A DNA stretch of 64,000 bases, from IMG/VR virus record IMGVR_UViG_2648501258_000001, positions 33,613 to 97,612 of that record; one strand, given 5' to 3'. The position numbers and the translations under genes were made by a program. The notes beneath the pieces were generated by a model. The model did no database searches. It was not told where the DNA came from and saw only the letters and a list, made by a program, of their open reading frames with translations. Positions 1,459 to 46,201 of the stretch are shown here, piece by piece (position 1 is the stretch's first letter; each line of letters opens with the position of its first letter). The DNA comes from a virus (lineage: Duplodnaviria > Caudoviricetes).

Positions 1459-1607
1459 TGGGGGCGGGAGCAGGACTCGAACCTGCACGCTTTCGCTGTC
1501 CGTTTGGGGCCACTTGTAACCTGCTAAGCTACTCCACACCTCGATATGGAAAGCCTCATACTCTTGCAGACCCTTAGAACTTTGTCTACCGATTCCATCA
1601 TCCCGTC
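1459..1607 (-). ncRNA. tRNA-Leu-like scaffold RNA with large structured insert replacing the anticodon loop (149 nt)
   Basis: GACGGGA/TCCCGCC-C-CCA acceptor, Leu-type D loop GGAATCGGTAGAC, GC-GAAA-GC variable arm, GCAGG-TTCGAGT-CCTGC T arm; own promoter upstream. Confidence 0.75.
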
Positions 1608-1658: not shown

Positions 1659-4271
1659 TTAGTGGCAGCCTGCCCACGATTTTTCAACAATGTACCCTGC
1701 TGTCAGGTCGATTGGCACAATCTCTGTGCTGTAGAACTGACCAGCCAACGATACAGCCTTCACAGCCAGCACGCCAGCTTCGCAGTAGGCCACGTACACG
1801 CCGTCACCCTTAGAAGCCTTGCTAATGTCAGACCACACCTTGCCAGTGGAAGCCTCTTCTGCATCCTTGAATGCCTGAGCCTCTTCCTTGGTTGCGAACC
1901 GCTTGAACTCGAACAGGGAAGCCGAGGCTTCGAGCTGTGCTTCGTCGTGGTACGCGATCATTTGCTGGCAAAACTTCTTGTTCTTCCAGTCGTCAAGGAA
2001 GAAGTCCACCGACAACCCTGCTTCCTTCAACAGAACATCGTGAATCACCATCGCACGCTTGGCACAGATAACCCCACCAGATTGGAACAAGCTGTTCAAG
2101 ATCGCATGTGCAGAACGTGTTGGCACACGACGACCGTCAATCCCGACAATGTACTTCTTACCATTAGCTTCCCACTCCCGTTGCAGTGTCTCTTTCAGCA
2201 TCTTGAGCGGGAAAGCAGCATCCCAGAAAGCCTCAAACACTTGGTTGCCTGTTGTCAAGTCAGAACCAATAGTCTTAGCTACCTTCGCAGCCTGGGCACC
2301 ATAGGTACAGCCATACTTCACGTTCTTAGCCGGACTACGACCAAACTCTCGCCCGATAATAGCACTAATGCTCTTAGCCATCATCGTGTGTACATCGAAC
2401 GGTTTATCCAGCATCAGAGACTTGCAATACGCCCGGTCTACAGCATCGTACTGATCGCAATAAGCGCTTTCAATCCGAGCTTCCAAGCTATCGAAGTCAT
2501 AACCGATCTGGAAGTAGCCATCAGAGACTCCAAACAGCGCTCTCAGCTCTTTGCCGTACAAGCTTGTAACACGAGGCACGTTCGCTACAGATCGGTGCTT
2601 AAATCGGCTTGTAGCGGCTCCACATGTATCTGCTGGGGTTGGGATTCGGCCATCCTCACGGACGTTCGAAATATAACCCTTCTCTGGCTCTTCGTCTGGA
2701 TCATCCCAATCAATACCCCCACCCAGGATCGAGTTACGGCGGTGCTTAAATGTCAGATACTCTACCACGTCCTTCGCAAATGGAAAGCTCTCAGAGATAC
2801 GTTCCAAGTCGGGACACATATCTTTGTCCTGCCCCTTCGTAAAGCTAGGGTTGCTCAGTACCTTTAGGCCACGGCCACCACGTTCCAACATAGCTTCAAC
2901 AAGATTACGATCTGCTGGACGACGGTTAGGCCATAGGTGGGCCAAGCGGTCATCACGGAATGCAGTGGTTAGCGTCTGTTCAACGTAACGTTCAATCGCT
3001 TCCTTGAATTTCTCAGGAGTCAGTTTAACCTTCTTGCTATCAACAGAAAGGTCTTTCTCTTTGTATTCACTTGGGTTCCAACCCAGAGACACAAGCCAGT
3101 TCTTGATATGCGTGGTGTCGTCAATCGTAGCATCCATCTCAGTGACCAGAGGCACACCAGCTTCTAGTGGCAGCGAATACACCTTGCCCAACATCTCAAC
3201 TGTACGAGTTTCAGGGTCATACACACCATCGTGCTTGACAATGAATTTCTCCATGTGAGCGGAGATTTCACCGTTCTTCTTGAACTGCGTCACTGGTGGA
3301 GTGTAGTTCTTCATGAACACTTGAGTTGCTGGTCGCTTAGGTAGAAGTGGTTCCACCTTAACGCGGCGCTCTTCCATCATTTTATCCAGCTCATCCAGGG
3401 CCTTATGTGCAAGCTCTCGATTGAAGTGGAAGCCACGGTGTTCTTGCCGTGTGATGATTTCAGCGATGTTGTGTTCAAGCTTAATTGCACTCACCCACTT
3501 CATCAGCTCAGCCCGATCATTCAGGTTAGGGCCAGCTGTCTTGTGGTCAATCTTGTTCTTGGTGCCGTCCATCAAACCGAAGAATACCTCAGTGTTGGAC
3601 TTAACGTCGAAAATACAGTAATAGAGCATATCCGCAGCAAAGTCACGGAATCGAATACTAACGTGCATGTGTTTACGGAAGGCGATCTTCTCGCTCATCC
3701 CACCAGACGCCAGCTTCTCTAGGGAGTGACCACCATAGCGGTCTGGGTTCAAACACTTACTCAGTGGGAGTGTGTCCCAGATTGCCAGCTTATTCCCACC
3801 CCATGTATCGCTGGTAAACGTTGTTAGACCACGATCCCGTACTTCATGACCAATTGTAAAATTGATGCCATAGGCCAGCTTGATAGCCATCAAGTCATAA
3901 CTGATTTGGTTATGAGCCACAAGACGACGAAACTTAGTCTTGAGGATGAAGTCTTTCAGCTCAGACATTTGACGGTGGGTGTACTCCAGTACCTCATACT
4001 CCCGCAAGAAGTAGGTCTCACCGTTGATTTCCTCGCAGTATTCCCGACCATCGAAAATATACTTCGGGCCATTGTGGAACGCGATGATTTCACCAGTGAA
4101 ATGGTTTTCAAAAACCACACAATGCATTGCGAAGTTGCCTTTCAGGCGATACGGGCTTGCCGTGTAGTCGATGGTGCGTTCGTTCAAGAGGTCGTTAGCC
4201 TCAATGTCCCAGGTCCAGTCGTCTGGATGTGCAAACTTGTTTGGTGCAAATGGTGGTTTAATCAGATTCAT
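1659..4271 (-). CDS. DNA polymerase, family A, with 3'-5' exonuclease
   Basis: Exo motifs WDIE, AHN..YD; motif A YDFDSLEARI; motif B RSPAKNVKYGCTYG; motif C YHDE. Confidence 0.95.
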   Translation of the reverse strand: MNLIKPPFAPNKFAHPDDWTWDIEANDLLNERTIDYTASPYRLKGNFAMHCVVFENHFTGEIIAFHNGPKYIFDGREYCEEINGETYFLREYEVLEYTHRQMSELKDFILKTKFRRLVAHNQISYDLMAIKLAYGINFTIGHEVRDRGLTTFTSDTWGGNKLAIWDTLPLSKCLNPDRYGGHSLEKLASGGMSEKIAFRKHMHVSIRFRDFAADMLYYCIFDVKSNTEVFFGLMDGTKNKIDHKTAGPNLNDRAELMKWVSAIKLEHNIAEIITRQEHRGFHFNRELAHKALDELDKMMEERRVKVEPLLPKRPATQVFMKNYTPPVTQFKKNGEISAHMEKFIVKHDGVYDPETRTVEMLGKVYSLPLEAGVPLVTEMDATIDDTTHIKNWLVSLGWNPSEYKEKDLSVDSKKVKLTPEKFKEAIERYVEQTLTTAFRDDRLAHLWPNRRPADRNLVEAMLERGGRGLKVLSNPSFTKGQDKDMCPDLERISESFPFAKDVVEYLTFKHRRNSILGGGIDWDDPDEEPEKGYISNVREDGRIPTPADTCGAATSRFKHRSVANVPRVTSLYGKELRALFGVSDGYFQIGYDFDSLEARIESAYCDQYDAVDRAYCKSLMLDKPFDVHTMMAKSISAIIGREFGRSPAKNVKYGCTYGAQAAKVAKTIGSDLTTGNQVFEAFWDAAFPLKMLKETLQREWEANGKKYIVGIDGRRVPTRSAHAILNSLFQSGGVICAKRAMVIHDVLLKEAGLSVDFFLDDWKNKKFCQQMIAYHDEAQLEASASLFEFKRFATKEEAQAFKDAEEASTGKVWSDISKASKGDGVYVAYCEAGVLAVKAVSLAGQFYSTEIVPIDLTAGYIVEKSWAGCH

Positions 4272-41173: not shown

Positions 41174-41204
41174 AATCCAATTCCTTGCTGGATTTTAGAA
41201 ACGA

Positions 41205-41226
41205 GAAAACCCACACAAGGTGGGTT
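41205..41226 (-). terminator. Terminator ending the tRNA cluster
   Basis: ACCCAC-CTTGT-GTGGGT-TTTC. Confidence 0.7.
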
Positions 41227-41293
41227 ATTCTGCACAAGACGTATCGGCTAAGGCAAGCTCTAGGCTGCAATGGTTGTCCCGATTGTCTATGTT

Positions 41294-41368
41294 TGGTGTC
41301 TTGTAAAGCTGTGCTTTCATCGTCTCAAAGGATCGTTATATGACACAGCCATCTACCAGATGCAAGAC
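41294..41368 (-). ncRNA. CCA-ended tRNA-like RNA lacking T arm
   Basis: GTCTTG/CAAGAC-A-CCA, CATC-TGGTA-GATG, GCTGTG/CACAGC. Confidence 0.6.
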
Positions 41369-41374
41369 ATTATT

Positions 41375-41448
41375 TGGTCGCCTCTGTGGAATCGAACCAC
41401 ATCCTCCGCAGCTAATCCACGGTACTCTCCCTGTTGAGCTATCGGGCG
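41375..41448 (-). pseudogene. Degenerate tRNA with TTA at the anticodon position
   Basis: D and T arms plus CCA; loop GATTAGC lacks U33; 3 acceptor mismatches. Confidence 0.6.
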
Positions 41449-41452
41449 TAAC

Positions 41453-41528
41453 TGGTGCATTCTCGTGGTTTCGATCCACGTCATCTGGGTTTTCAAGCCA
41501 GTGCTTCTACCAAGTTAGCTTAGAATGC
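41453..41528 (-). tRNA. tRNA-Phe(GAA)
   Basis: Loop TTGAAAA; cloverleaf; CCA. Confidence 0.85.
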
Positions 41529-41532
41529 AATT

Positions 41533-41606
41533 TGGTGCTTCATGATAGAATCGAACTACCGTAGCTGGCATGTAAGACCAGCGTTCTGCCATTGAACTAA
41601 TGAAGC
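41533..41606 (-). tRNA. tRNA-Val(TAC)
   Basis: Loop CTTACAT; cloverleaf; CCA. Confidence 0.9.
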
Positions 41607-41610
41607 AAAT

Positions 41611-41686
41611 TGGTGCGGGATTAGGGAGTCGAACCCTAGTTACTCGGGTGGAAGCCGAGAGTATTAGACCTCTATACGAATCACGC
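41611..41686 (-). tRNA. tRNA-Gly(TCC)
   Basis: Loop CTTCCAC; CCA; A73. Confidence 0.88.
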
Positions 41687-41691
41687 ATGTT

Positions 41692-41766
41692 TGGAGTATC
41701 TTACTGGAGTTGAACCAGTCTAAGTGGGTTTGCAATCCACTACCTCAGCCGCTCGGACAAAGACAC
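41692..41766 (-). tRNA. tRNA-Cys(GCA)
   Basis: Loop TTGCAAA; U73. Confidence 0.88.
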
Positions 41767-41773
41767 TTTAAAT

Positions 41774-41853
41774 TGGTGGAAGCTCCGAGGATTCGAACCC
41801 GGCTGCTGTTCTCAGTGCAAGTGAGATGACCACTCCTAGCAGTCCCAGCCCCC
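41774..41853 (-). tRNA. tRNA-Ala(TGC)
   Basis: Loop CTTGCAC; G3-U70. Confidence 0.85.
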
Positions 41854-41873
41854 ATAAATCGTTGTAACTAAAT

Positions 41874-41948
41874 TGGTGTGAGGTGGAGATTCGAACTCCA
41901 ACAATCGTTTCACAGACGAAAGTGTCAGCCAGTGACAACGGCCTCACC
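41874..41948 (-). tRNA. tRNA-His(GTG), atypical
   Basis: Loop CTGTGAA; A73 rather than C73. Confidence 0.75.
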
Positions 41949-41955
41949 ATTAAAT

Positions 41956-42030
41956 TGGTCACTCGGGGGTGGAGTCGAACCACCGCCACTTCGTTCCAAA
42001 CAAAGTACGCTACCGTAACGCTTCCGAGAG
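41956..42030 (-). tRNA. tRNA-Pro(TGG)
   Basis: Loop TTTGGAA; C1-G72, A73. Confidence 0.85.
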
Positions 42031-42053
42031 ATTGTCCTTACGGACTATAAAAC

Positions 42054-42127
42054 TGGTGGACCGCTGACTTCGCTCTTTACCAGAAGACTGTCGTCATTAA
42101 CCGCTAGCATCACGTGCAGAGCAGCCC
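42054..42127 (-). ncRNA. CCA-ended non-cloverleaf RNA (74 nt)
   Basis: GGGCTGCT/AGCGGTCC-A-CCA with G3-U; no T loop. Confidence 0.6.
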
Positions 42128-42133
42128 ATAAAT

Positions 42134-42218
42134 TGGTGGTTCATCTAGGACTCGAACCTAGGATGTATCGTTGTGCCGGGTTACAGCCGGTCGTCTTCGC
42201 CGCTCGACGCAATGAACC
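42134..42218 (-). tRNA. tRNA-Tyr(GTA)
   Basis: Loop CTGTAAC; long variable region. Confidence 0.88.
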
Positions 42219-42225
42219 ATGAATC

Positions 42226-42308
42226 ATCGAAGTAGCTCTACCGTCTGAGCTTACATTGAGGGGCGACCCCTAAAAGGTGGGACTCGAACCCACGCACACT
42301 TCTTCAAT
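42226..42308 (-). ncRNA. Circularly permuted tRNA mimic (YrlA-like architecture)
   Basis: Order T arm, capped acceptor-like hairpin, D arm; ends pair ATTGAAG/CTTCGAT. Confidence 0.7.
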
Positions 42309-42479
42309 TGGCGGCAAAGGAAGGGAATTGAACCCACCGCTACTAAGTCTCTTCACTTATCCTACTCTTCCGTGTATAGAGCGGTGTAAGCTATCATACG
42401 TTTCACTAGCCCCAGATACACATGAACTTTATGCCTACACGGGGGGCGTACTCATTCATGATCCACTTGGCTCAGAGCC
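42309..42479 (-). ncRNA. 171-nt CCA-ended tRNA-like RNA with kissing loop
   Basis: T loop TTCAATT, GCCA end, CCGTGTA/TACACGG loop complementarity. Confidence 0.7.
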
Positions 42480-42486
42480 TTTAAAT

Positions 42487-42572
42487 TGGCTGGCGCGGTA
42501 GGGCTCGAACCTACAAGACCTTTCGGAAGCTCCGTTAACAGCGGAGTGCAGTACCATTATGCTTACACGCCA
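42487..42572 (-). tRNA. tRNA-Asn(GTT) with long variable arm
   Basis: Loop CTGTTAA; G73; extra CC-GAAA-GG arm. Confidence 0.85.
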
Positions 42573-42573
42573 A

Positions 42574-42939
42574 TTATTCTTCTATCTTCAACCTGACATG
42601 TTCTTCGCGGTGGCAGTTAGCACACAGCATAACACATTTATCAAGTTCGATTTTAATCTTCTCAAAAGACTTCGTATGCCCATTCGCGGAGATACCAAAG
42701 TCCTTCTGTGTTGGATCAGTGTGATGGAACTCAAGAGCAGCAGAACATTTGTCATACCCGCAGCTTTCACACTTACCGCCTTTATATTCAATCGACAAAG
42801 CTTTCAGTTTCAATCGCCTACGCTGCACTGCTTCTGACAAGCACTTACAGCAACGATACTTCATGATCTTTGGATTGTCAAGTCGGAAGTTTGTCTCTCC
42901 GTGTTTCTGACAGGTTCGAACTACTTGTTCCCTTACCAC
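42574..42939 (-). CDS. HNH endonuclease in tRNA cluster
   Basis: KGGKC..CGY....ALEFHH.DP, KC..LCANCH...H; GTG start after GGAGG. Confidence 0.88.
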   Translation of the reverse strand: MVREQVVRTCQKHGETNFRLDNPKIMKYRCCKCLSEAVQRRRLKLKALSIEYKGGKCESCGYDKCSAALEFHHTDPTQKDFGISANGHTKSFEKIKIELDKCVMLCANCHREEHVRLKIEE

Positions 42940-43049
42940 ATTACCTCCATTAAGACCCACGCCCGGTGAGAACATTACCTATAAATCTGATAGAGACTAT
43001 ATTTAGACAGCACACTCTATCTGGCTGTATACGTGGGGAGCCACATATA

Positions 43050-43129
43050 TGGTTGCGAAAGGAGGAATCGAACCTCAAGCATCTGGTTATGAGCCAGTTA
43101 ACAGCACCAGCCGTCTTAGCGCTCTCGCA
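43050..43129 (-). tRNA. tRNA-Met(CAT)
   Basis: Loop CTCATAA; CCA; initiator/elongator/Ile2 status unresolved. Confidence 0.8.
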
Positions 43130-43243
43130 TTAAATTGGTTTGTTGTAAGCGCTTTCAAGCCTTCCCAGTATCCCAGACCAACTCAGTCGTCTCGGTGGGG
43201 CATTCATCGGGTCGCATATTTCAGCTTCTTTAAACCCTGAATC

Positions 43244-43317
43244 TGGTTGCTCGTGAGTGAATTGAACACCCCTAAGACGCTTATCAGGCGACTGCATTAC
43301 CACTATGCTAACGAGCA
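43244..43317 (-). tRNA. tRNA-Ile(GAT)
   Basis: Loop CTGATAA. Confidence 0.88.
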
Positions 43318-43323
43318 ATAATT

Positions 43324-43397
43324 TGGTGCCCCAGTAGAGAATCAAACTCCAATCCCCGGATTACAAAACCGGTGCATCATCATAATGCTTCAAGGGC
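43324..43397 (-). tRNA. tRNA-Thr(TGT)
   Basis: Loop TTTGTAA. Confidence 0.85.
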
Positions 43398-43570
43398 AAT
43401 GTGAGCAGTTCTACGACATGCTCAGGCCGGGCGTATTTGCATCATGCTTGAGCCTTACCACAGGCCCACTTTACCGCGTTGATGTTTGCGGGATAAGCCT
43501 ACCGAGATGGCTTTCTCATTGCGACAGACTACAGGATTTCAAACTGCATGTCTACCCTCGGGCAACAAAT

Positions 43571-43650
43571 TGGCGACCTATATGGGTAACGATCCCATCT
43601 GAACATCTCCCGTGACAGGGGAGCAACCACACCGTGCAGTACCATAAGTC
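43571..43650 (-). tRNA. tRNA-Asp(GTC)
   Basis: Loop CTGTCAC; G73; atypical T loop ATCGTTA. Confidence 0.82.
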
Positions 43651-43656
43651 ATTGTT

Positions 43657-43734
43657 TGGTTTGTCGAAGTAGGAACCGATTACCTACGCCATATCATTGC
43701 TTTCGCTCGGACAGCCAGTAAAGGCTTCAACAAA
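43657..43734 (-). ncRNA. CCA-ended RNA with 10-bp terminal helix
   Basis: TTTGTTGAAG/CTTCGACAAA-CCA. Confidence 0.6.
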
Positions 43735-43735
43735 T

Positions 43736-43812
43736 TGGTACACCATCGGGGACTCGAACCCCGTTCATGAGGGTGAAAACCTCATATCCTAAACCTCGTA
43801 GACGAATGGTGC
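43736..43812 (-). tRNA. tRNA-Glu(TTC)
   Basis: Loop TTTTCAC. Confidence 0.88.
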
Positions 43813-43821
43813 ATTAAATCT

Positions 43822-43953
43822 TTAGGCTGTTTCACCAGACACTGGGTGTTTGGTTTTCAGACCTTTGTTCGGGTGACGACCTTTCGACTCTTTCAAGCGA
43901 GTGGTCTTATCAACCGGAGCATGTTCTTTTGTAGCATCATATGGCTTTGCCAT
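43822..43953 (-). CDS. Small basic peptide (43 aa) in tRNA cluster
   Basis: AAAGGAGA RBS; MAKPYDATKEHAPVDK...VSGETA. Confidence 0.6.
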   Translation of the reverse strand: MAKPYDATKEHAPVDKTTRLKESKGRHPNKGLKTKHPVSGETA

Positions 43954-43980
43954 TTTCTTTCTCCTTTGTCGTTTCTAATT

Positions 43981-44058
43981 TGGTACACGGGACAGGGGTC
44001 GAACCTGCCTAAAACGCCTTCGTAGGGCGGTGCCTCAGTCCAATCGAGCCACCCGTGT
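43981..44058 (-). tRNA. tRNA-Arg(ACG)
   Basis: Loop CTACGAA. Confidence 0.88.
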
Positions 44059-44078
44059 ATGTCGTTGCTATATGGAGA

Positions 44079-44106
44079 AGTTTACACGACATTTACACAA
44101 TGTCAA
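44079..44106 (-). promoter_or_regulatory. Internal tRNA-cluster promoter
   Basis: TTGACA-N16-TAAACT. Confidence 0.65.
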
Positions 44107-44131
44107 GCGTTTATTTCAACATATTTTAAAT

Positions 44132-44206
44132 TGGTACTGGATGTTGGATTCGAACCAACCTAAAGAGGCTTAGAAGGCCCCTGCACATCCACTGTACCAA
44201 TCCAGT
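44132..44206 (-). tRNA. tRNA-Arg(TCT)
   Basis: Loop CTTCTAA. Confidence 0.9.
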
Positions 44207-44211
44207 ATGTT

Positions 44212-44379
44212 TGGTCGGTGCCCTCGGGGGATGATCCCGTAAGATGATGCTTTCCTCTTGCTTGGGTGGGCTACGCACGCCACTTGCACAAGTCTACTGA
44301 CACTTCTCCATGACCCACTTCCAGAATCCTTCCAGCCTGCGTAGTGGGCCTTTCAGATTCATCCAGTTGTCTTACACCG
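44212..44379 (-). ncRNA. 168-nt CCA-ended tRNA-like RNA with kissing loop
   Basis: CGGTGT/GCACCG-A-CCA, CTACGCA/TGCGTAG complementarity. Confidence 0.7.
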
Positions 44380-44389
44380 TTTATTAAAT

Positions 44390-44465
44390 TGGCGGGCTAC
44401 CGAGGATTCGAACCCCATCCGCATGGCTTTGGAGGCCAGCATGCATGCCATCACAATCGTAACCC
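44390..44465 (-). tRNA. tRNA-Trp(CCA)
   Basis: Loop CTCCAAA; G73. Confidence 0.85.
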
Positions 44466-44569
44466 TTAATTCGTAGGAGACATTTATAACACGCTGTCTC
44501 CTGAGCGTCAACACATAAGAGTTGGTTTCTTATGCTCCATCCCAAGGCGCTTGAACTCCCAGGTATGTC

Positions 44570-44645
44570 TGGAAGAGGATGCTGGAATCGAACCAGCTTA
44601 AACGGAGTCAAAGTCCGGTGCCTAATGCCAATCGGCCAATCCTCA
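44570..44645 (-). tRNA. tRNA-Gln(TTG)
   Basis: Loop CTTTGAC. Confidence 0.88.
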
Positions 44646-44770
44646 ATTGTTAGTACCGAGAGTCTTCTCCGGTTTCGAACCCTTTGTCAACTCTCTAGCT
44701 GCCTTCCCTATACGTCACCGCGAGCCGGTCAGGCTGGGAATCGAACCCGGCGTATAGGTATTTCAGTGTT

Positions 44771-44848
44771 TGGTAGGGCACCTCGGACTCGAACCGAGAA
44801 GCTCCTGATTCTAAATCAGGAAGGTAGACCAATTCCCTTCAATGCCCC
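44771..44848 (-). tRNA. tRNA-Leu(TAG), short variable arm
   Basis: Loop TTTAGAA; A73. Confidence 0.88.
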
Positions 44849-45291
44849 AATAGTCTTCTGCTGAATTGACTGTGACAATTGGGACACAAGAATCGTAGAT
44901 TCTCTGCTCTATCGTCTAGCCAGTTTTCATTTATATGATCAACATCTAAAGTCAATGGACTACCCATCCACTCTGGCTCTTGACCACATTTACTGCATTC
45001 GTGTTTAGTTCCCGACTCAATCAACGCCCTGACAAGGTGATGGGACTTTGCTCGTCTACCTTCTGTGCGGAGAATCAGAATATCACCTGATGTTTTTCGC
45101 TGCCTACTTATCGAACCCTTTGCATGAGCTTGACCTGTAAAGTGCGCTGTACAAATACCAATGCGACGTATCCTATTCGTGTAGTGCGAGTGACTGCCTC
45201 CCGCTTGCTTCAATCCAAGCTCTCGTAGGACTTCGTAAATACTGTAGCATCTACTGACAATGATTGCAAGCTGTTCATCTGTTACTTTCAT
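44839..45291 (-). CDS. HNH endonuclease in tRNA cluster
   Basis: CSKCG..W...L.LDVDHIN..W.D....NLRFLCPNCH. Confidence 0.88.
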   Translation of the reverse strand: MKVTDEQLAIIVSRCYSIYEVLRELGLKQAGGSHSHYTNRIRRIGICTAHFTGQAHAKGSISRQRKTSGDILILRTEGRRAKSHHLVRALIESGTKHECSKCGQEPEWMGSPLTLDVDHINENWLDDRAENLRFLCPNCHSQFSRRLLGH

Positions 45292-45307
45292 CGTCTCTCC
45301 TTTTGTT

Positions 45308-45384
45308 TGGTGGGCCTTCCCAGACTCGAACTGGGATCATCTTCATTTTGAGTGAAGCACGTCTGCCAATTGCATCAAAGGCCC
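45308..45384 (-). tRNA. tRNA-Leu(CAA), short variable arm
   Basis: Loop CTCAAAA; A73. Confidence 0.88.
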
Positions 45385-45461
45385 AAATTCGTACTGACGA
45401 CCAGAATCTCACTGGAGTAGGTCTCGGGACTTTATGTCAGTCATACCCAAAACACTTTATT

Positions 45462-45550
45462 TGGAGGCGGGTAAAGGAATCGAACCCTCACCGGCTACTA
45501 ACCAGTGGCGCAGTTTTCAAGACTGTGTACCGCCATCGGTGCTACCCGCC
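45462..45550 (-). tRNA. tRNA-Ser(TGA)
   Basis: Loop CTTGAAA; long variable arm. Confidence 0.88.
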
Positions 45551-45655
45551 GAAATTTAGACCAGCGTAATTGGGACTCTTACCCCATTTGTTTGAGAAAC
45601 CGCTCGCTGGCTCGACGGCTCAATGTTTGTCATATCAGGAGCGACCTGATCATTC

Positions 45656-45743
45656 TGGCAGAGCATGTAGGATTCGAACCTACGGAGCGTTTCCACTCTA
45701 TGGGTTAGCAACCCACTACCATCGGCCTCTCGGTCAATGCTCT
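45656..45743 (-). tRNA. tRNA-Ser(GCT)
   Basis: Loop TTGCTAA; long variable arm; G73. Confidence 0.9.
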
Positions 45744-45747
45744 ATAT

Positions 45748-45824
45748 TGGTTGGACGCCCCAGACTCGAACTGGGAACCTACCGGGTAAAAGCCGGTTAT
45801 TCTAAACCATTGAATTAGCGTCCA
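45748..45824 (-). tRNA. tRNA-Lys(TTT)
   Basis: Loop CTTTTAC. Confidence 0.9.
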
Positions 45825-46201
45825 ATAAATTCTACTGTCTGCCCTCTCGCGAGCTTCCAGTGTGTTTCTCTGTGGCAATTAGAGCATAGCAGAACACACT
45901 TGTCAATCTCTTCTAGAAGATTTTCTTTAGACATACTCCATCTCTTATTGATTTGGAAGTCCTTGTGTTCAGGATCTACGTGGTGAAACTCTAGGGCAGC
46001 TGTACAGGCGCTGTATCCACAAAGAATACACCCACCACCTTTCTGCGCTACAAGCCATCTTGACTTCTCTTCGTATCTTGCCATGTTTCTAGCATTAAAA
46101 CAAGCTTTACATTCACTCATTAGATTACCAGAAGTTTTCCTTCCCTTGGCGTAATACTCACTTTCTTGCTTTTCTAAGTTGCATTGTGAACAGATTTTCA
46201 T
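45815..46201 (-). CDS. HNH endonuclease in tRNA cluster
   Basis: KGGGC..CGY....ALEFHH.DP, KCVLLCSNCH...H. Confidence 0.88.
   Translation of the reverse strand: MKICSQCNLEKQESEYYAKGRKTSGNLMSECKACFNARNMARYEEKSRWLVAQKGGGCILCGYSACTAALEFHHVDPEHKDFQINKRWSMSKENLLEEIDKCVLLCSNCHRETHWKLARGQTVEFIGR

What the first reader, a model, noticed from the sequence alone, without database searches (positions are those of the whole stretch)
42309..42479. Kissing-loop tRNA-like RNA, member 1 of a pair
Seen: 171 nt; 5' GGC and D-loop-like AAGTGGAT; CATGAA/TTCATG arm whose loop CCGTGTA is exactly complementary to TACACGG in a later CTCT/AGAG hairpin; then T loop TTCAATT and GCCA. The 168-nt RNA at 44212 has the same plan with a different 7-bp pair, which is covariation within one genome. 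Inference: a class of large CCA-ended RNAs with a tertiary kissing contact.
Basis: partly seen in the sequence, partly recalled or inferred. Interest (0 to 1): 0.82.

Follow-up and report, generated by a model that had tools for sequence, protein, structure and literature searches.

The report
tRNA-shaped phage RNA with kissing arms
A 171-base gene in a Pseudomonas phage's tRNA cluster encodes a folded RNA that keeps the top of a tRNA but carries two extra arms whose tips pair; it belongs to a tiny uncatalogued family and its job is unknown.

Summary
On the minus strand, 42479->42309 reads as described, and the 7-nt loop-loop match is rarer than chance (16 of 1000 shuffles; 11 of 1000 for the 44212 copy).

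A covariance model built only from the second copy and a homologue in the unrelated N4-like Pseudomonas phage phCDa picks 42309-42479 as the best other hit in the 64-kb window. It is full length at 14.7 bits against 10.2 for the next hit.

On that alignment, which is blind to the kissing helix, the kissing columns pair 7/7, 7/7 and 6/7. Four of 7 pairs differ by double changes. An 8-helix model is 90.6% paired against 37-47% when slid.

The fold is an expanded cloverleaf: acceptor stem, D-stem-like helix with UGGAU, a hairpin inserted in the "D loop", a tethered second arm, T arm and CCA.

It matches no Rfam family, tRNA or tmRNA. It is an accessory cassette, absent from 6 of 6 related arrays.

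Function is unknown. Most likely it is a stable tRNA mimic processed like a tRNA. It is built like T4 RNA C. Scan notes report similar RNAs in other phages' tRNA arrays (unchecked).

The parts
42309..42479 (-). Member 1: whole 171-nt RNA unit (RNA position p = 42480 - coordinate)
   Evidence: Sequence. Full-length hit of model R1, which was built without it: 14.7 bits, best non-self hit in the window.
42473..42479 (-). P1 5' strand (GGCUCUG), acceptor-like
   Evidence: Pairs with 42313-42319 at only 4 of 7 positions (G-C, G-C, C-G, then three Y.Y mismatches, then G-C).
42466..42471 (-). Pd 5' strand (RNA 9-14), D-stem-like helix
   Evidence: Predicted by RNAalifold. 5 of 5 pairs form in all three sequences and 3 of 5 have double changes.
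42461..42465 (-). UGGAU (RNA 15-19), invariant in all three sequences; the GG lies where tRNA has G18 G19
   Evidence: Invariant columns. Any contact with the T loop is inferred, not shown.
42421..42460 (-). Arm A distal part: P2 (CAUGAA/UUCAUG), internal loop, P3 (GCC/GGC) and the 9-nt loop CCCCGUGUA
   Evidence: P2 has 6 of 6 pairs changed on both sides and is 100% paired. P3 is 91.7% paired.
42436..42442 (-). Kissing segment A, CCGUGUA (RNA 38-44)
   Evidence: 7 of 7 Watson-Crick pairs with 42370-42376. Duplex energy -8.9 kcal/mol. In run X1 a variant C37U adds an eighth possible pair with A111.
42409..42415 (-). Pd 3' strand (RNA 65-71)
42356..42390 (-). Arm B: P4 (CUUA/UAAG), internal loop, P5 (CUCU/AGAG) and the loop AUACACGGA
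   Evidence: P5 has 3 of 4 pairs changed on both sides and is 100% paired. P4 is 93.3% paired with 1 double change.
42370..42376 (-). Kissing segment B, UACACGG (RNA 104-110)
42320..42338 (-). T arm: GGUGGG-UUCAAUU-CCCUUC
   Evidence: Aligned to the T arms of the other two copies. The only Rfam signal is a 13-nt T-loop match to tmRNA (6.9 bits).
42309..42319 (-). P1 3' strand (CUUUGCC), G at the discriminator position, encoded CCA
44212..44379 (-). Member 2: 168-nt paralogue, 47% identical to member 1, same plan with kissing pair CUACGCA/UGCGUAG
42219..42308 (-). Neighbour that shares member 1's 261-nt presence/absence tract: a circularly permuted tRNA mimic (T arm, capped acceptor, D arm). 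Not part of the RNA itself.
   Evidence: Rfam YrlA, 18 bits against a cut-off of 69, full model length. The joint 42220->42482 in relatives removes both units.

Best explanation
42309-42479 (minus strand) is a real gene for a structured non-coding RNA. It is one of a small family that also holds 44212-44379 and a copy in the N4-like Pseudomonas phage phCDa.

The fold is a tRNA-derived 'expanded cloverleaf':
- an acceptor-like stem with an encoded CCA;
- a 5-bp D-stem-like helix followed by an invariant UGGAU;
- a ~40-nt hairpin (P2-P3) inserted where the D loop would be;
- a second hairpin (P4-P5) on long single-stranded tethers, where the anticodon arm would be;
- a T arm;
- a 7-bp kissing helix between the two hairpin loops.

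SHOWN: the helices and the loop-loop pairing are kept by compensatory changes across sequences that are only 47-50% identical. The unit sits in a tRNA 'slot' of the array. It is an accessory cassette.

INFERRED:
- It is co-transcribed with the tRNAs.
- It is cut out by the tRNA-maturation enzymes, because it keeps the tRNA top half.
- This makes it stable.
- The locked two-arm body then acts as a non-decoding tRNA mimic. It would be a decoy or ligand for a host (Pseudomonas) factor that binds tRNA-shaped RNA, for example a processing enzyme or a tRNA-targeting defence enzyme.

Which partner it binds is not known.
For: 1. Model R1 was built from member 2 and phCDa only, with helices P2, P3, P5 and T. 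It finds 42309-42479 at full length with 14.7 bits. That is the best non-self hit in the whole window, both strands, filters off. The next hit scores 10.2 bits, and the tRNAs of the array score at most 8.5.

2. The kissing helix, Pd and P4 were not in that model. On its alignment the kissing columns pair in 20 of 21 cells, with 4 of 7 pairs changed on both sides. P2 is 6/6 changed and 100% paired. P5 is 3/4 changed.

3. RNAalifold independently returns P2, P3, P5 and T, and adds Pd and P4. For the 8-helix model:
- 90.6% of 128 cells pair, against 36.6-47.2% when the partners are slid;
- 21 pairs carry double changes;
- 0 of 500 shuffles reach any of the five measures.

4. Loop-loop matches this long are rare in shuffles: 16/1000 and 11/1000. 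Five other spacers of the array show none.

5. A homologue sits in a different phage family with no tRNA gene within 5 kb. It has a canonical T arm (GGGGG-UUCGAUU-CCCUC) and a 7-bp acceptor stem.

6. In public runs:
- A 401-nt contig in X1 holds member 1 with 2 changes, neither in a helix. One of them, C37U, adds a possible eighth kissing pair. Its flanks differ on both sides.
- A contig in X2 holds a phCDa-like copy in which C45U and G53A would keep their pairs, if the unseen partner bases are unchanged.

7. There is no terminator inside the unit, and the array ends in one at 41226-41208. Each unit is followed by the same CCAAUU-type junction.

8. For member 2 and phCDa, the model fold plus the kissing energy equals or beats the MFE.
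Against: - MFE z-scores are about 0.
- For member 1 the model fold is -22.4 kcal/mol, or -34.1 with other pairs allowed. Adding -8.9 for the kiss still falls short of the MFE of -45.3.
- Member 1's acceptor stem has only 4 of 7 pairs.
- Member 2's T loop (AUCAUCC) is not canonical, and its acceptor 3' strand is one nucleotide out of register.
- phCDa has lost one kissing pair without compensation (A.A).
- Only three full sequences exist, in effect two lineages, so the statistics rest on few independent events. The alignment was fitted to four of the eight helices.
- E-values of these models are unreliable. R2 gave 23 bits to a stretch inside a PhoH-like ORF and up to 24.7 bits to hits at or over ordinary tRNAs.
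- The unit is dispensable: 6 of 6 related arrays lack it, and so do contigs in three runs.
- No expression data. The one RNA run laid (X4) holds a relative without the unit.
- No evidence bears on the proposed partner or on decoy action.
Confidence: 0.6

Rival explanations
1. Same RNA and same helices, but the two complementary loops pair between molecules.
For: Covariation cannot separate pairing within a molecule from pairing between molecules. In ROOL, a kissing loop first read as tertiary proved to be quaternary. ROOL and GOLLD are phage RNAs 'often near tRNA islands' (PMC12286853, passages read). The two paralogues in one genome use different, non-cross-pairing loop sequences. That would keep two assemblies apart.
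Against: Arm B hangs on tethers of 19 and 17 nt. That fits docking onto arm A of the same molecule. There are no data on oligomeric state, and a 170-nt RNA is far smaller than the known cage formers.
Confidence: 0.17
2. A decaying relic: a former tRNA gene or genes, or spacer left by recombination in the array, with complementarity and 'arms' that arose by chance and have no function.
For: MFE z-scores are about 0. Member 1 has a weak acceptor stem and its model fold is below the MFE. It is absent from all close relatives examined. There are no blastn relatives in phages or plasmids.
Against: Six of the eight helices stay 91.7-100% paired at 47% sequence identity; the acceptor stem, at 61.9%, is the exception. 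21 pairs carry double changes. A model blind to member 1 finds it. A copy survives in an unrelated phage family away from any tRNA. A near-identical copy sits in another context in run X1.
Confidence: 0.1
3. A cis-acting element of the polycistronic tRNA transcript, such as an entry or pause site for RNase E or RNase P, or a spacer that tunes processing of tRNA-Asn and tRNA-Tyr. On this view it is not a free RNA with its own target.
For: It lies between two tRNAs on the same strand, with the same junction motif as the other units. Relatives manage with spacers of 5-13 nt.
Against: The phCDa copy has no tRNA within 5 kb. In X1 member 1 has different neighbours. An 8-helix fold with its own CCA end is far more than a processing site needs.
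Confidence: 0.06
4. A miniature tmRNA-like or otherwise chargeable RNA that is aminoacylated and enters the ribosome.
For: - The phCDa copy has G3:U70 in a 7-bp acceptor stem. That this pair is the alanine identity element shared by tRNA-Ala and tmRNA is recalled knowledge.
- All three copies have a frame that opens right after P2 and ends in a stop inside the linker.
- Small RNAs of ~170 nt with tmRNA-like ends exist in viral contigs.
Against: - Member 1 has C3-G70 and member 2 has G3-C70, so no identity element is shared.
- There is no tmRNA match beyond a 13-nt T loop at 6.9 bits.
- ARAGORN calls nothing.
- The putative tags are not conserved in sequence, are 4 or 9 codons long, and lack a canonical tag end.
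Confidence: 0.04
5. A short protein-coding gene: 17 codons starting at AUGAAU in member 1, 22 in member 2.
For: Both paralogues have AUG AAU right after UGGAU and an open frame to a stop.
Against: phCDa has AUU instead of AUG. The peptides share only 6 of 22 residues, all encoded by nucleotides conserved for the RNA. No Shine-Dalgarno sequence precedes the AUG. All 6 P2 pairs change on both sides, which fits RNA selection rather than protein selection.
Confidence: 0.03

Closest known systems
Bacteriophage T4 species 1 RNA (rnaC / RNA C, 139 nt) and its Tevenvirinae homologues
   Same: - A stable-RNA gene inside a phage tRNA cluster, on the tRNA strand.
- Keeps a T arm (CCGGG-UUCGAAU-CCCGG) and an acceptor-like stem whose centre holds U.U mismatches. 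Member 1 likewise has central Y.Y mismatches.
- The interior is replaced by arms.
- Two complementary hexamers, UUGACG and CGUCAA (one in a hairpin loop), are invariant in 5 of 5 homologues, even where the surrounding sequence differs.
- Function 'yet unknown' (PMC9697503, passages read).
   Different: - No sequence or model similarity. R2's only hit in the T4 locus is tRNA-Leu.
- 139 nt against 166-171 nt.
- No encoded CCA in the annotated T4 RNA.
- The T4 loop match is 6 nt and not significant on its own (58 of 500 shuffles). It is conserved rather than covarying.
- The arms are laid out differently.
tRNA (Rfam RF00005), especially class II tRNAs with long extra arms
   Same: Acceptor stem, helix starting at nt 9-10, GG after it, T arm with a UUCRAUU loop (member 1 and phCDa), discriminator base and CCA. 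Placed as a unit of a tRNA array.
   Different: - 166-171 nt.
- No 7-nt anticodon loop.
- The D loop carries a 40-nt hairpin.
- Linkers are 17-19 nt long.
- Not found by ARAGORN or by RF00005 at E <= 10.
YrlA-type bacterial Y RNAs (Rfam RF02553), tRNA mimics
   Same: A non-decoding RNA that copies tRNA parts. One with that permuted topology lies directly downstream (42219-42308), inside the same 261-nt presence/absence tract.
   Different: Member 1 is not permuted, ends in CCA and has no Ro-binding stem. The phage has no TROVE/Ro gene. The YrlA model does not match member 1.
tmRNA tRNA-like domain
   Same: Acceptor and T arm with a reduced D region containing GG, pseudoknotted interior. phCDa has G3:U70.
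   Different: About half the size. No tag frame that is conserved. Identity pair not shared by members 1 and 2. No Rfam or ARAGORN match.
ROOL / GOLLD RNAs and phi29 pRNA (phage RNAs that use kissing loops)
   Same: Phage-encoded. ROOL and GOLLD often lie near tRNA islands, and kissing loops are central to their architecture (PMC12286853). That pRNA uses covarying complementary loops is recalled, not checked here.
   Different: ROOL and GOLLD are much larger (GOLLD often over 800 nt; ROOL's size is recalled) and are not tRNA-shaped. No Rfam hit here. pRNA belongs to Bacillus podoviruses and works in DNA packaging.

Membership tests
tRNA (RF00005 / ARAGORN) | Cloverleaf of 70-95 nt with a 7-nt anticodon loop, detectable by the covariance model or by ARAGORN | tested here: not met
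   ARAGORN lists 19 tRNAs in the window, none at 42309-42479 or 44212-44379, and none in the phCDa locus. RF00005 at E <= 10 gives no hit over member 1, member 2 or the phCDa copy.
tRNA (RF00005 / ARAGORN) | Acceptor stem of 7 bp plus discriminator plus CCA, and a T arm of 5 bp with a 7-nt loop | tested here: inconclusive
   Fully met in phCDa (7 bp including G:U; GGGGG-UUCGAUU-CCCUC). Member 2 has 6 bp, one nucleotide out of register, and the loop AUCAUCC. Member 1 has 4 of 7 pairs and the loop UUCAAUU.
tmRNA (RF00023) | tRNA-like domain with G3:U70, plus pseudoknots, plus a tag reading frame | tested here: not met
   Only a 13-nt T-loop match at 6.9 bits (cut-off 47). ARAGORN finds no tmRNA. 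G3:U70 occurs in phCDa only. No conserved tag.
YrlA / Y RNA-like (RF02553) | Permuted tRNA-like module on a Ro-binding stem, usually next to rsr | tested here: not met
   The weak YrlA hit (18 bits, cut-off 69) covers 42211-42314, the neighbouring unit, not member 1. No TROVE domain in the 97.6-kb genome.
T4 RNA C (species 1 RNA) family | Sequence or model homology to rnaC of Tevenvirinae | tested here: not met
   blastn of member 1 finds nothing in phages, and member 2 finds only phCDa. R2 does not hit rnaC in the T4 locus. The resemblance is in architecture only.
New family proposed here (member 1, member 2, phCDa copy) | Shared helices P2, P3, P5 and T, detectable by a model built without the candidate | tested here: met
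   R1 hit at 42309-42479, full length, 14.7 bits, rank 1 among non-self hits in the window.
New family proposed here (member 1, member 2, phCDa copy) | Loop of P3 complementary to loop of P5 in the same alignment columns | tested here: met
   7/7, 7/7 and 6/7 pairs. 4 of 7 pairs changed on both sides. These columns were not in the model's structure.
Any other Rfam 15 family | Match at the gathering score | tested here: not met
   17 matches at gathering score in the window, all tRNA. Nothing over member 1 or member 2 except chance-level hits at E <= 10.

The most novel reading that the evidence does not exclude
Member 1, member 2 and the phCDa copy may be the Pseudomonas-phage branch of a widespread, unrecognised class of tRNA-derived 'kissing-arm' RNAs, with T4 RNA C as the long-known but unexplained first example.

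On this reading the class has three properties:
- Members move as single cassettes between the tRNA arrays and early regions of unrelated phages, perhaps riding on homing-endonuclease-driven recombination.
- Each copy carries its own private loop-loop code.
- They act as decoys against tRNA-targeting bacterial immunity, or assemble with themselves through the loops.
Probability: 0.25. Interest if true: 0.85.

Novelty: new variant of a known kind. Interest (0 to 1): 0.64.

Why it matters
Phage tRNA clusters have been known since the 1970s to yield stable RNAs that are not tRNAs. T4 RNA C and RNA D are still listed as 'of yet unknown functions' (PMC9697503).

This finding gives a second, independent example with a testable architecture:
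- a tRNA top half that should route the RNA through tRNA maturation;
- two arms locked by a 7-bp loop-loop helix whose sequence differs between paralogues.

The element is a clean presence/absence cassette among near-identical phages, and a copy occurs in a cultured phage (phCDa). Gain and loss experiments, and loop-swap mutants, are therefore straightforward.

If such RNAs prove to be tRNA-shaped decoys or self-assembling units, that would add a new layer to the current picture of phage tRNA arrays as counter-defence tools. It would also give a handle on the old T4 RNA C question.

Tried and rejected
**Searches for more members. None found.**
- blastn 'distant' of member 1 against phages and plasmids: no match.
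- blastn 'distant' of member 2: phCDa only in phages, nothing in plasmids.
- nhmmer, and blastn with word size 7, of member 1, member 2, the YrlA-like unit and the phCDa copy against 31 related loci. nhmmer found nothing. blastn found only short chance or T-arm-sized matches.
- Eight viral-contig scans:
  - 0 loci;
  - 3 loci, all inside a conserved ORF (I took it for a portal gene, untested);
  - phCDa plus one coding chance hit;
  - phCDa only;
  - protein-anchored fetch of 28 related loci;
  - 47 loci;
  - 0 loci;
  - 3 loci including phCDa.
- One metagenome-contig scan: 17 loci, all unrelated. By eye four looked like RNase P RNA and several like a hairpin element. I did not test those labels.
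- Two genome-contig scans: 0 and 0.
- R2 searches:
  - 34 sources, 46 of the 47 pattern loci (the 47th is phCDa's own record), L108/L109 and L110/L111. The only hits were at ordinary tRNAs or spanned tRNA genes, checked with ARAGORN for 5 loci.
  - Whole records of 18 relatives. The best extra hit, L105 at 23 bits, lies inside a 265-codon ORF with a Walker-A motif and is a false positive.

**Readings considered and dropped.**
- tmRNA, hammerhead-like ribozyme, RNase P RNA fragment, and a CsrA/Rsm sponge (GGA motifs by eye: 7, 5 and 3 in member 2, phCDa and member 1). None has support from a tool.
- An intron in a tRNA. There is no anticodon stem on either side of the insert, and 120 nt is too short for a group I intron. 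That size limit is recalled.
- A helix GGAU/AUCU before the T arm. It fits member 2 and phCDa but not member 1.
- A hairpin ACUU-GUGC-AAGU. It is present in member 2 and phCDa, not conserved in member 1, and competes with P4.

**Expression.** The single RNA run laid (X4) holds a relative that lacks the unit, so nothing can be said about transcription. Parts without cover in that call are not used as evidence.

**Papers.** Supplements were not opened. The structured-RNA catalogue of PMC10690425 (passages read) may list related motifs in supplementary tables that I could not see.

**'Not in print'.** This rests on four full-text searches only.
Full report
**What the window is.** The window is part of a 97.6-kb IMG/VR virus record. 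Its nearest named relatives are Otagovirus-type Pseudomonas phages such as PPSC2, PE09 and Pyxpy01. On the minus strand, 41200-45824 carries a tRNA array. ARAGORN tRNAs. Rfam adds 41456-41528 at the gathering score, plus weak tRNA-type hits at 43057-43126 and 44394-44465. The finding is the 171-nt unit between tRNA-Asn (42487-42572) and a second odd unit (42219-42308) that precedes tRNA-Tyr.

**The observation.**
- GGC at the 5' end, then AAGUGGAU;
- a CAUGAA/UUCAUG stem enclosing GCC-CCCCGUGUA-GGC;
- a CUCU-AUACACGGA-AGAG hairpin whose loop is exactly complementary (7 nt) to the first loop;
- GGG-UUCAAUU-CCC, then GCCA.

The 168-nt unit at 44212-44379 has the same parts at nearly the same positions, with CUACGCA/UGCGUAG. 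Plain folding shows no excess stability, with z = +0.44 and +0.12.

A loop-loop Watson-Crick match of at least 7 nt between two hairpins arises in only 16 of 1000 dinucleotide shuffles of member 1 and 11 of 1000 of member 2. Five other spacers of the same array show nothing of the kind, with 128-488 of 500 shuffles doing as well.

**Are the two units one kind of RNA?** blastn finds no relative of member 1. Member 2 matches 113 nt at 78% identity in phCDa, a Schitoviridae (N4-like) phage of Pseudomonas fluorescens. The match lies in a ~1-kb stretch without annotated genes and with no tRNA within 5 kb. That copy has a canonical T arm and a 7-bp acceptor stem with G3:U70, G73 and CCA.

I built covariance model R1 from member 2 and phCDa only, with four helices (P2, P3, P5, T). 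I searched the whole window on both strands with filters off. After member 2 itself, the best hit is 42309-42479, full length, at 14.7 bits. The next hit scores 10.2 bits and the array's tRNAs at most 8.5. The quoted E-value (0.005) is rough, so I rely on the rank and on the exact coincidence of the ends.

On the alignment made by that model, the kissing helix was not part of the model. Its columns still pair 7/7, 7/7 and 6/7, and 4 of the 7 pairs differ between member 1 and member 2 on both sides. P2 is changed on both sides at 6 of 6 pairs and is 100% paired. P5 is changed at 3 of 4. Member 1 is 47% identical to member 2 and 50% to phCDa.

**The fold.** RNAalifold, run without constraints on the same alignment, returns P2, P3, P5 and T. 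It adds two helices:
- Pd (columns 9-14 with 65-71), with three covarying pairs;
- P4 (91-95 with 122-126), with one covarying pair.

With the acceptor stem and the kissing helix, the 8-helix model has 43 pairs. Of its 128 cells, 90.6% pair, against 36.6-47.2% when the partners are slid by 1-3 columns. 21 pairs carry double changes, and 0 of 500 column shuffles reach the observed values.

Two caveats apply. There are only three sequences, in effect two lineages. And the alignment was fitted to four of the eight helices.

The resulting picture is an expanded cloverleaf:
- acceptor stem;
- one nucleotide, then a D-stem-like helix starting at nt 9;
- the invariant UGGAU, whose GG lies where tRNA has G18 G19;
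- a P2-P3 hairpin of about 40 nt inserted at that point;
- a 19-nt linker;
- a P4-P5 hairpin;
- a 17-nt purine-rich linker;
- T arm, acceptor 3' strand, one base, CCA.

The loops of P3 and P5 form the 7-bp helix.

Energies: the model fold plus the kiss equals or beats the MFE for member 2 (-46.8 - 8.9 against -50.1) and phCDa (-46.6 - 7.3 against -48.0). It does not for member 1 (-34.1 - 8.9 against -45.3), whose acceptor stem has only 4 of 7 pairs.

**It is a cassette.** tRNA-Asn and tRNA-Tyr are 5-9 nt apart in 6 of 6 related arrays examined: PPSC2, Bitten, PE09, L027, L029 and Pyxpy01.

In public runs, contigs of close relatives show the following:
- X1, X2 and X4 join 42220 to 42482, skipping 261 nt with 13 other letters between. 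That removes member 1 and the permuted unit together.
- X2 and X3 join 44210 to 44389, skipping 178 nt and removing member 2 exactly.
- X1, X2 and X4 also lack the ORF 42574-42975, skipping 408 nt.

That ORF is a paralogue of 45815-46201 (54% identity over 68 residues). The latter has a sub-threshold HNH match of 20.0 bits against a cut-off of 21.4.

A separate 401-nt contig in X1 holds member 1 with two changes and different flanks on both sides. So member 1 is a module of its own. The two changes are RNA C37U, which would add an eighth kissing pair with A111, and C32A, at the junction.

A small X2 contig holds the core of a phCDa-like copy. Its visible changes (C45U, G53A) would keep their pairs if the unseen partner bases are unchanged.

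**What it is not.**
- No Rfam family matches at the gathering score.
- At E <= 10, only a 13-nt T-loop match to tmRNA at 6.9 bits touches member 1.
- ARAGORN calls neither a tRNA nor a tmRNA.
- The short frames opening at AUGAAU are not conserved as protein, and phCDa has AUU.
- There is no terminator inside the unit.
- The YrlA hit (18 bits, cut-off 69) belongs to the neighbour at 42219-42308. The genome has no TROVE/Ro gene.

**How it most likely works.** Shown: a conserved fold with a tRNA top half, two arms with complementary loops, placement as a unit of a tRNA operon, and accessory status.

Inferred: the RNA is transcribed with the tRNAs and released by the tRNA-maturation enzymes. The tRNA top half makes it stable, as in engineered 'tRNA scaffold' RNAs (recalled, not checked here). 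The locked body then serves as a non-decoding tRNA mimic that engages a host factor.

The acceptor identities differ among the three copies (G3:U70 with G73; G3-C70 with A73 and C1-G72; C3-G70 with G73). A shared aminoacylation role is therefore unlikely.

The main structural rival is that the loops pair between molecules. Covariation cannot tell the two apart. The cryo-EM study of ROOL and GOLLD, which are phage RNAs often near tRNA islands, found that a kissing loop predicted as tertiary is in fact quaternary (PMC12286853, passages read).

**Comparison with what is known.** The closest named thing is T4 RNA C (rnaC, species 1 RNA). It lies in the T4 tRNA cluster and has a T arm and an acceptor-like stem with central U.U mismatches. 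In an alignment of 5 Tevenvirinae homologues, two complementary hexamers (UUGACG and the hairpin loop CGUCAA) stay invariant even where the surrounding arm has diverged. On its own the T4 match is not significant (58 of 500 shuffles).

The function of RNA C and RNA D is still described as unknown (PMC9697503, passages read). There is no sequence or model homology between that family and this one. The relation is 'built like', not 'member of'.

Notes of this scan list several other CCA-ended or kissing-arm RNAs in tRNA arrays of unrelated phages. I could not see their sequences and did not test them. They suggest the kind is recurrent, and they are not independent support.

**Search for more members.** Every attempt failed; details are in Tried and rejected. 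Model R2, built from all three sequences, is not selective. Its best hits elsewhere, up to 24.7 bits, lie at or over ordinary tRNAs, and it gave 23 bits to a stretch inside a PhoH-like ORF. The family as held here is three full sequences plus two partial or variant copies seen in run contigs.

**Verdict.** The element is a real, structured, tRNA-derived RNA of a small uncatalogued family with a covarying loop-loop contact. Its function and the cis or trans nature of the contact are open. It is a new variant of the old and unexplained kind represented by T4 RNA C.

Noticed in passing
window 42219-42308 (-): Circularly permuted tRNA mimic with the order T arm GUGGG-UUCGAGU-CCCAC, capped acceptor-like hairpin, D arm AGCUC-AGACGGUA-GAGCU. 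It gives a weak full-length YrlA hit (18 bits, cut-off 69). The genome has no TROVE/Ro gene. It shares a 261-nt presence/absence tract with member 1 relative to close relatives.
   Followed up: partly
window 42574-42975 (-), 44839-45291 (-), 45815-46201 (-): Three small Cys-rich ORFs sit inside the tRNA array. One passes Pfam HNH (26.5 bits). One is just under the cut-off (20.0 against 21.4). The third is its paralogue (54% identity over 68 residues). Relatives in runs X1, X2 and X4 lack 42574-42975 (skip of 408 nt), next to the junction where member 1 is also missing. This may reflect homing-driven turnover of array units.
   Followed up: partly
window 1459-1540 (-): A tRNA-like stretch ending in GCAGG-UUCGAGU-CCUGC ... 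CCA turned up as a weak hit of models R1 and R2 (about 10 bits). Neither ARAGORN nor Rfam at gathering score calls it.
   Followed up: no
window 44394-44465 (-), 43057-43126 (-), 41873-41950 (-): tRNA-like units that ARAGORN missed. By eye 44394-44465 has a CCA anticodon (Trp) and 43057-43126 a CAU anticodon. Rfam gives these two only weak tRNA-Sec-type hits (23.1 and 28.7 bits). The third was seen by eye only. A fourth, 41456-41528, is a clear Rfam tRNA (46.8 bits, cut-off 29) that ARAGORN also missed.
   Followed up: no
L077 2-170 (-), L096 11534-11701 (+), L086 1366-1524 (-) / L087 7060-7218 (+) and about 17 nt upstream: Viral contigs carry RNAs of about 170 nt with tmRNA-like ends: GGGGC..., a possible G3:U70, GGGGG-UUCAAAU/UUCAAUU-CCCCC, ...GCUCCACCA. 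In L077/L096 a short frame GCA AAA GCG ... UAA is present. Neither ARAGORN nor Rfam at gathering score calls them. They may be miniature phage tmRNA-like genes.
   Followed up: partly
L002 (phage Bitten) 3743-3822 (-) and the ~180 nt upstream of it: Between tRNA-Trp and tRNA-Arg(tct), Bitten carries an 80-nt CCA-ended unit. It has an Arg-type UCU anticodon loop, no evident D stem and a long extra segment (R2 20.3 bits). A further unrelated spacer closed by GUGAAUG/CAUUCAC lies beside it. Array slots in this phage group hold varied odd units.
   Followed up: no
L055 (T4) 1909-2047 (-) with L112-L115: In 5 of 5 rnaC homologues, UUGACG and the hairpin loop CGUCAA are invariant and complementary. 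The acceptor-like stem keeps two central U.U mismatches while pair 3-70 switches from A-U to G-C. The T stem covaries (CCGGG/CCCGG, CCUGG/CCAGG, CCAGG/CCUGG).
   Followed up: partly
L007 (phCDa) about 2180-3190 (+): About 1 kb without annotated genes in the early left end of an N4-like phage. The family member lies at 2477-2642. The rest has no blastn relative in the phage collection and no Rfam match.
   Followed up: no
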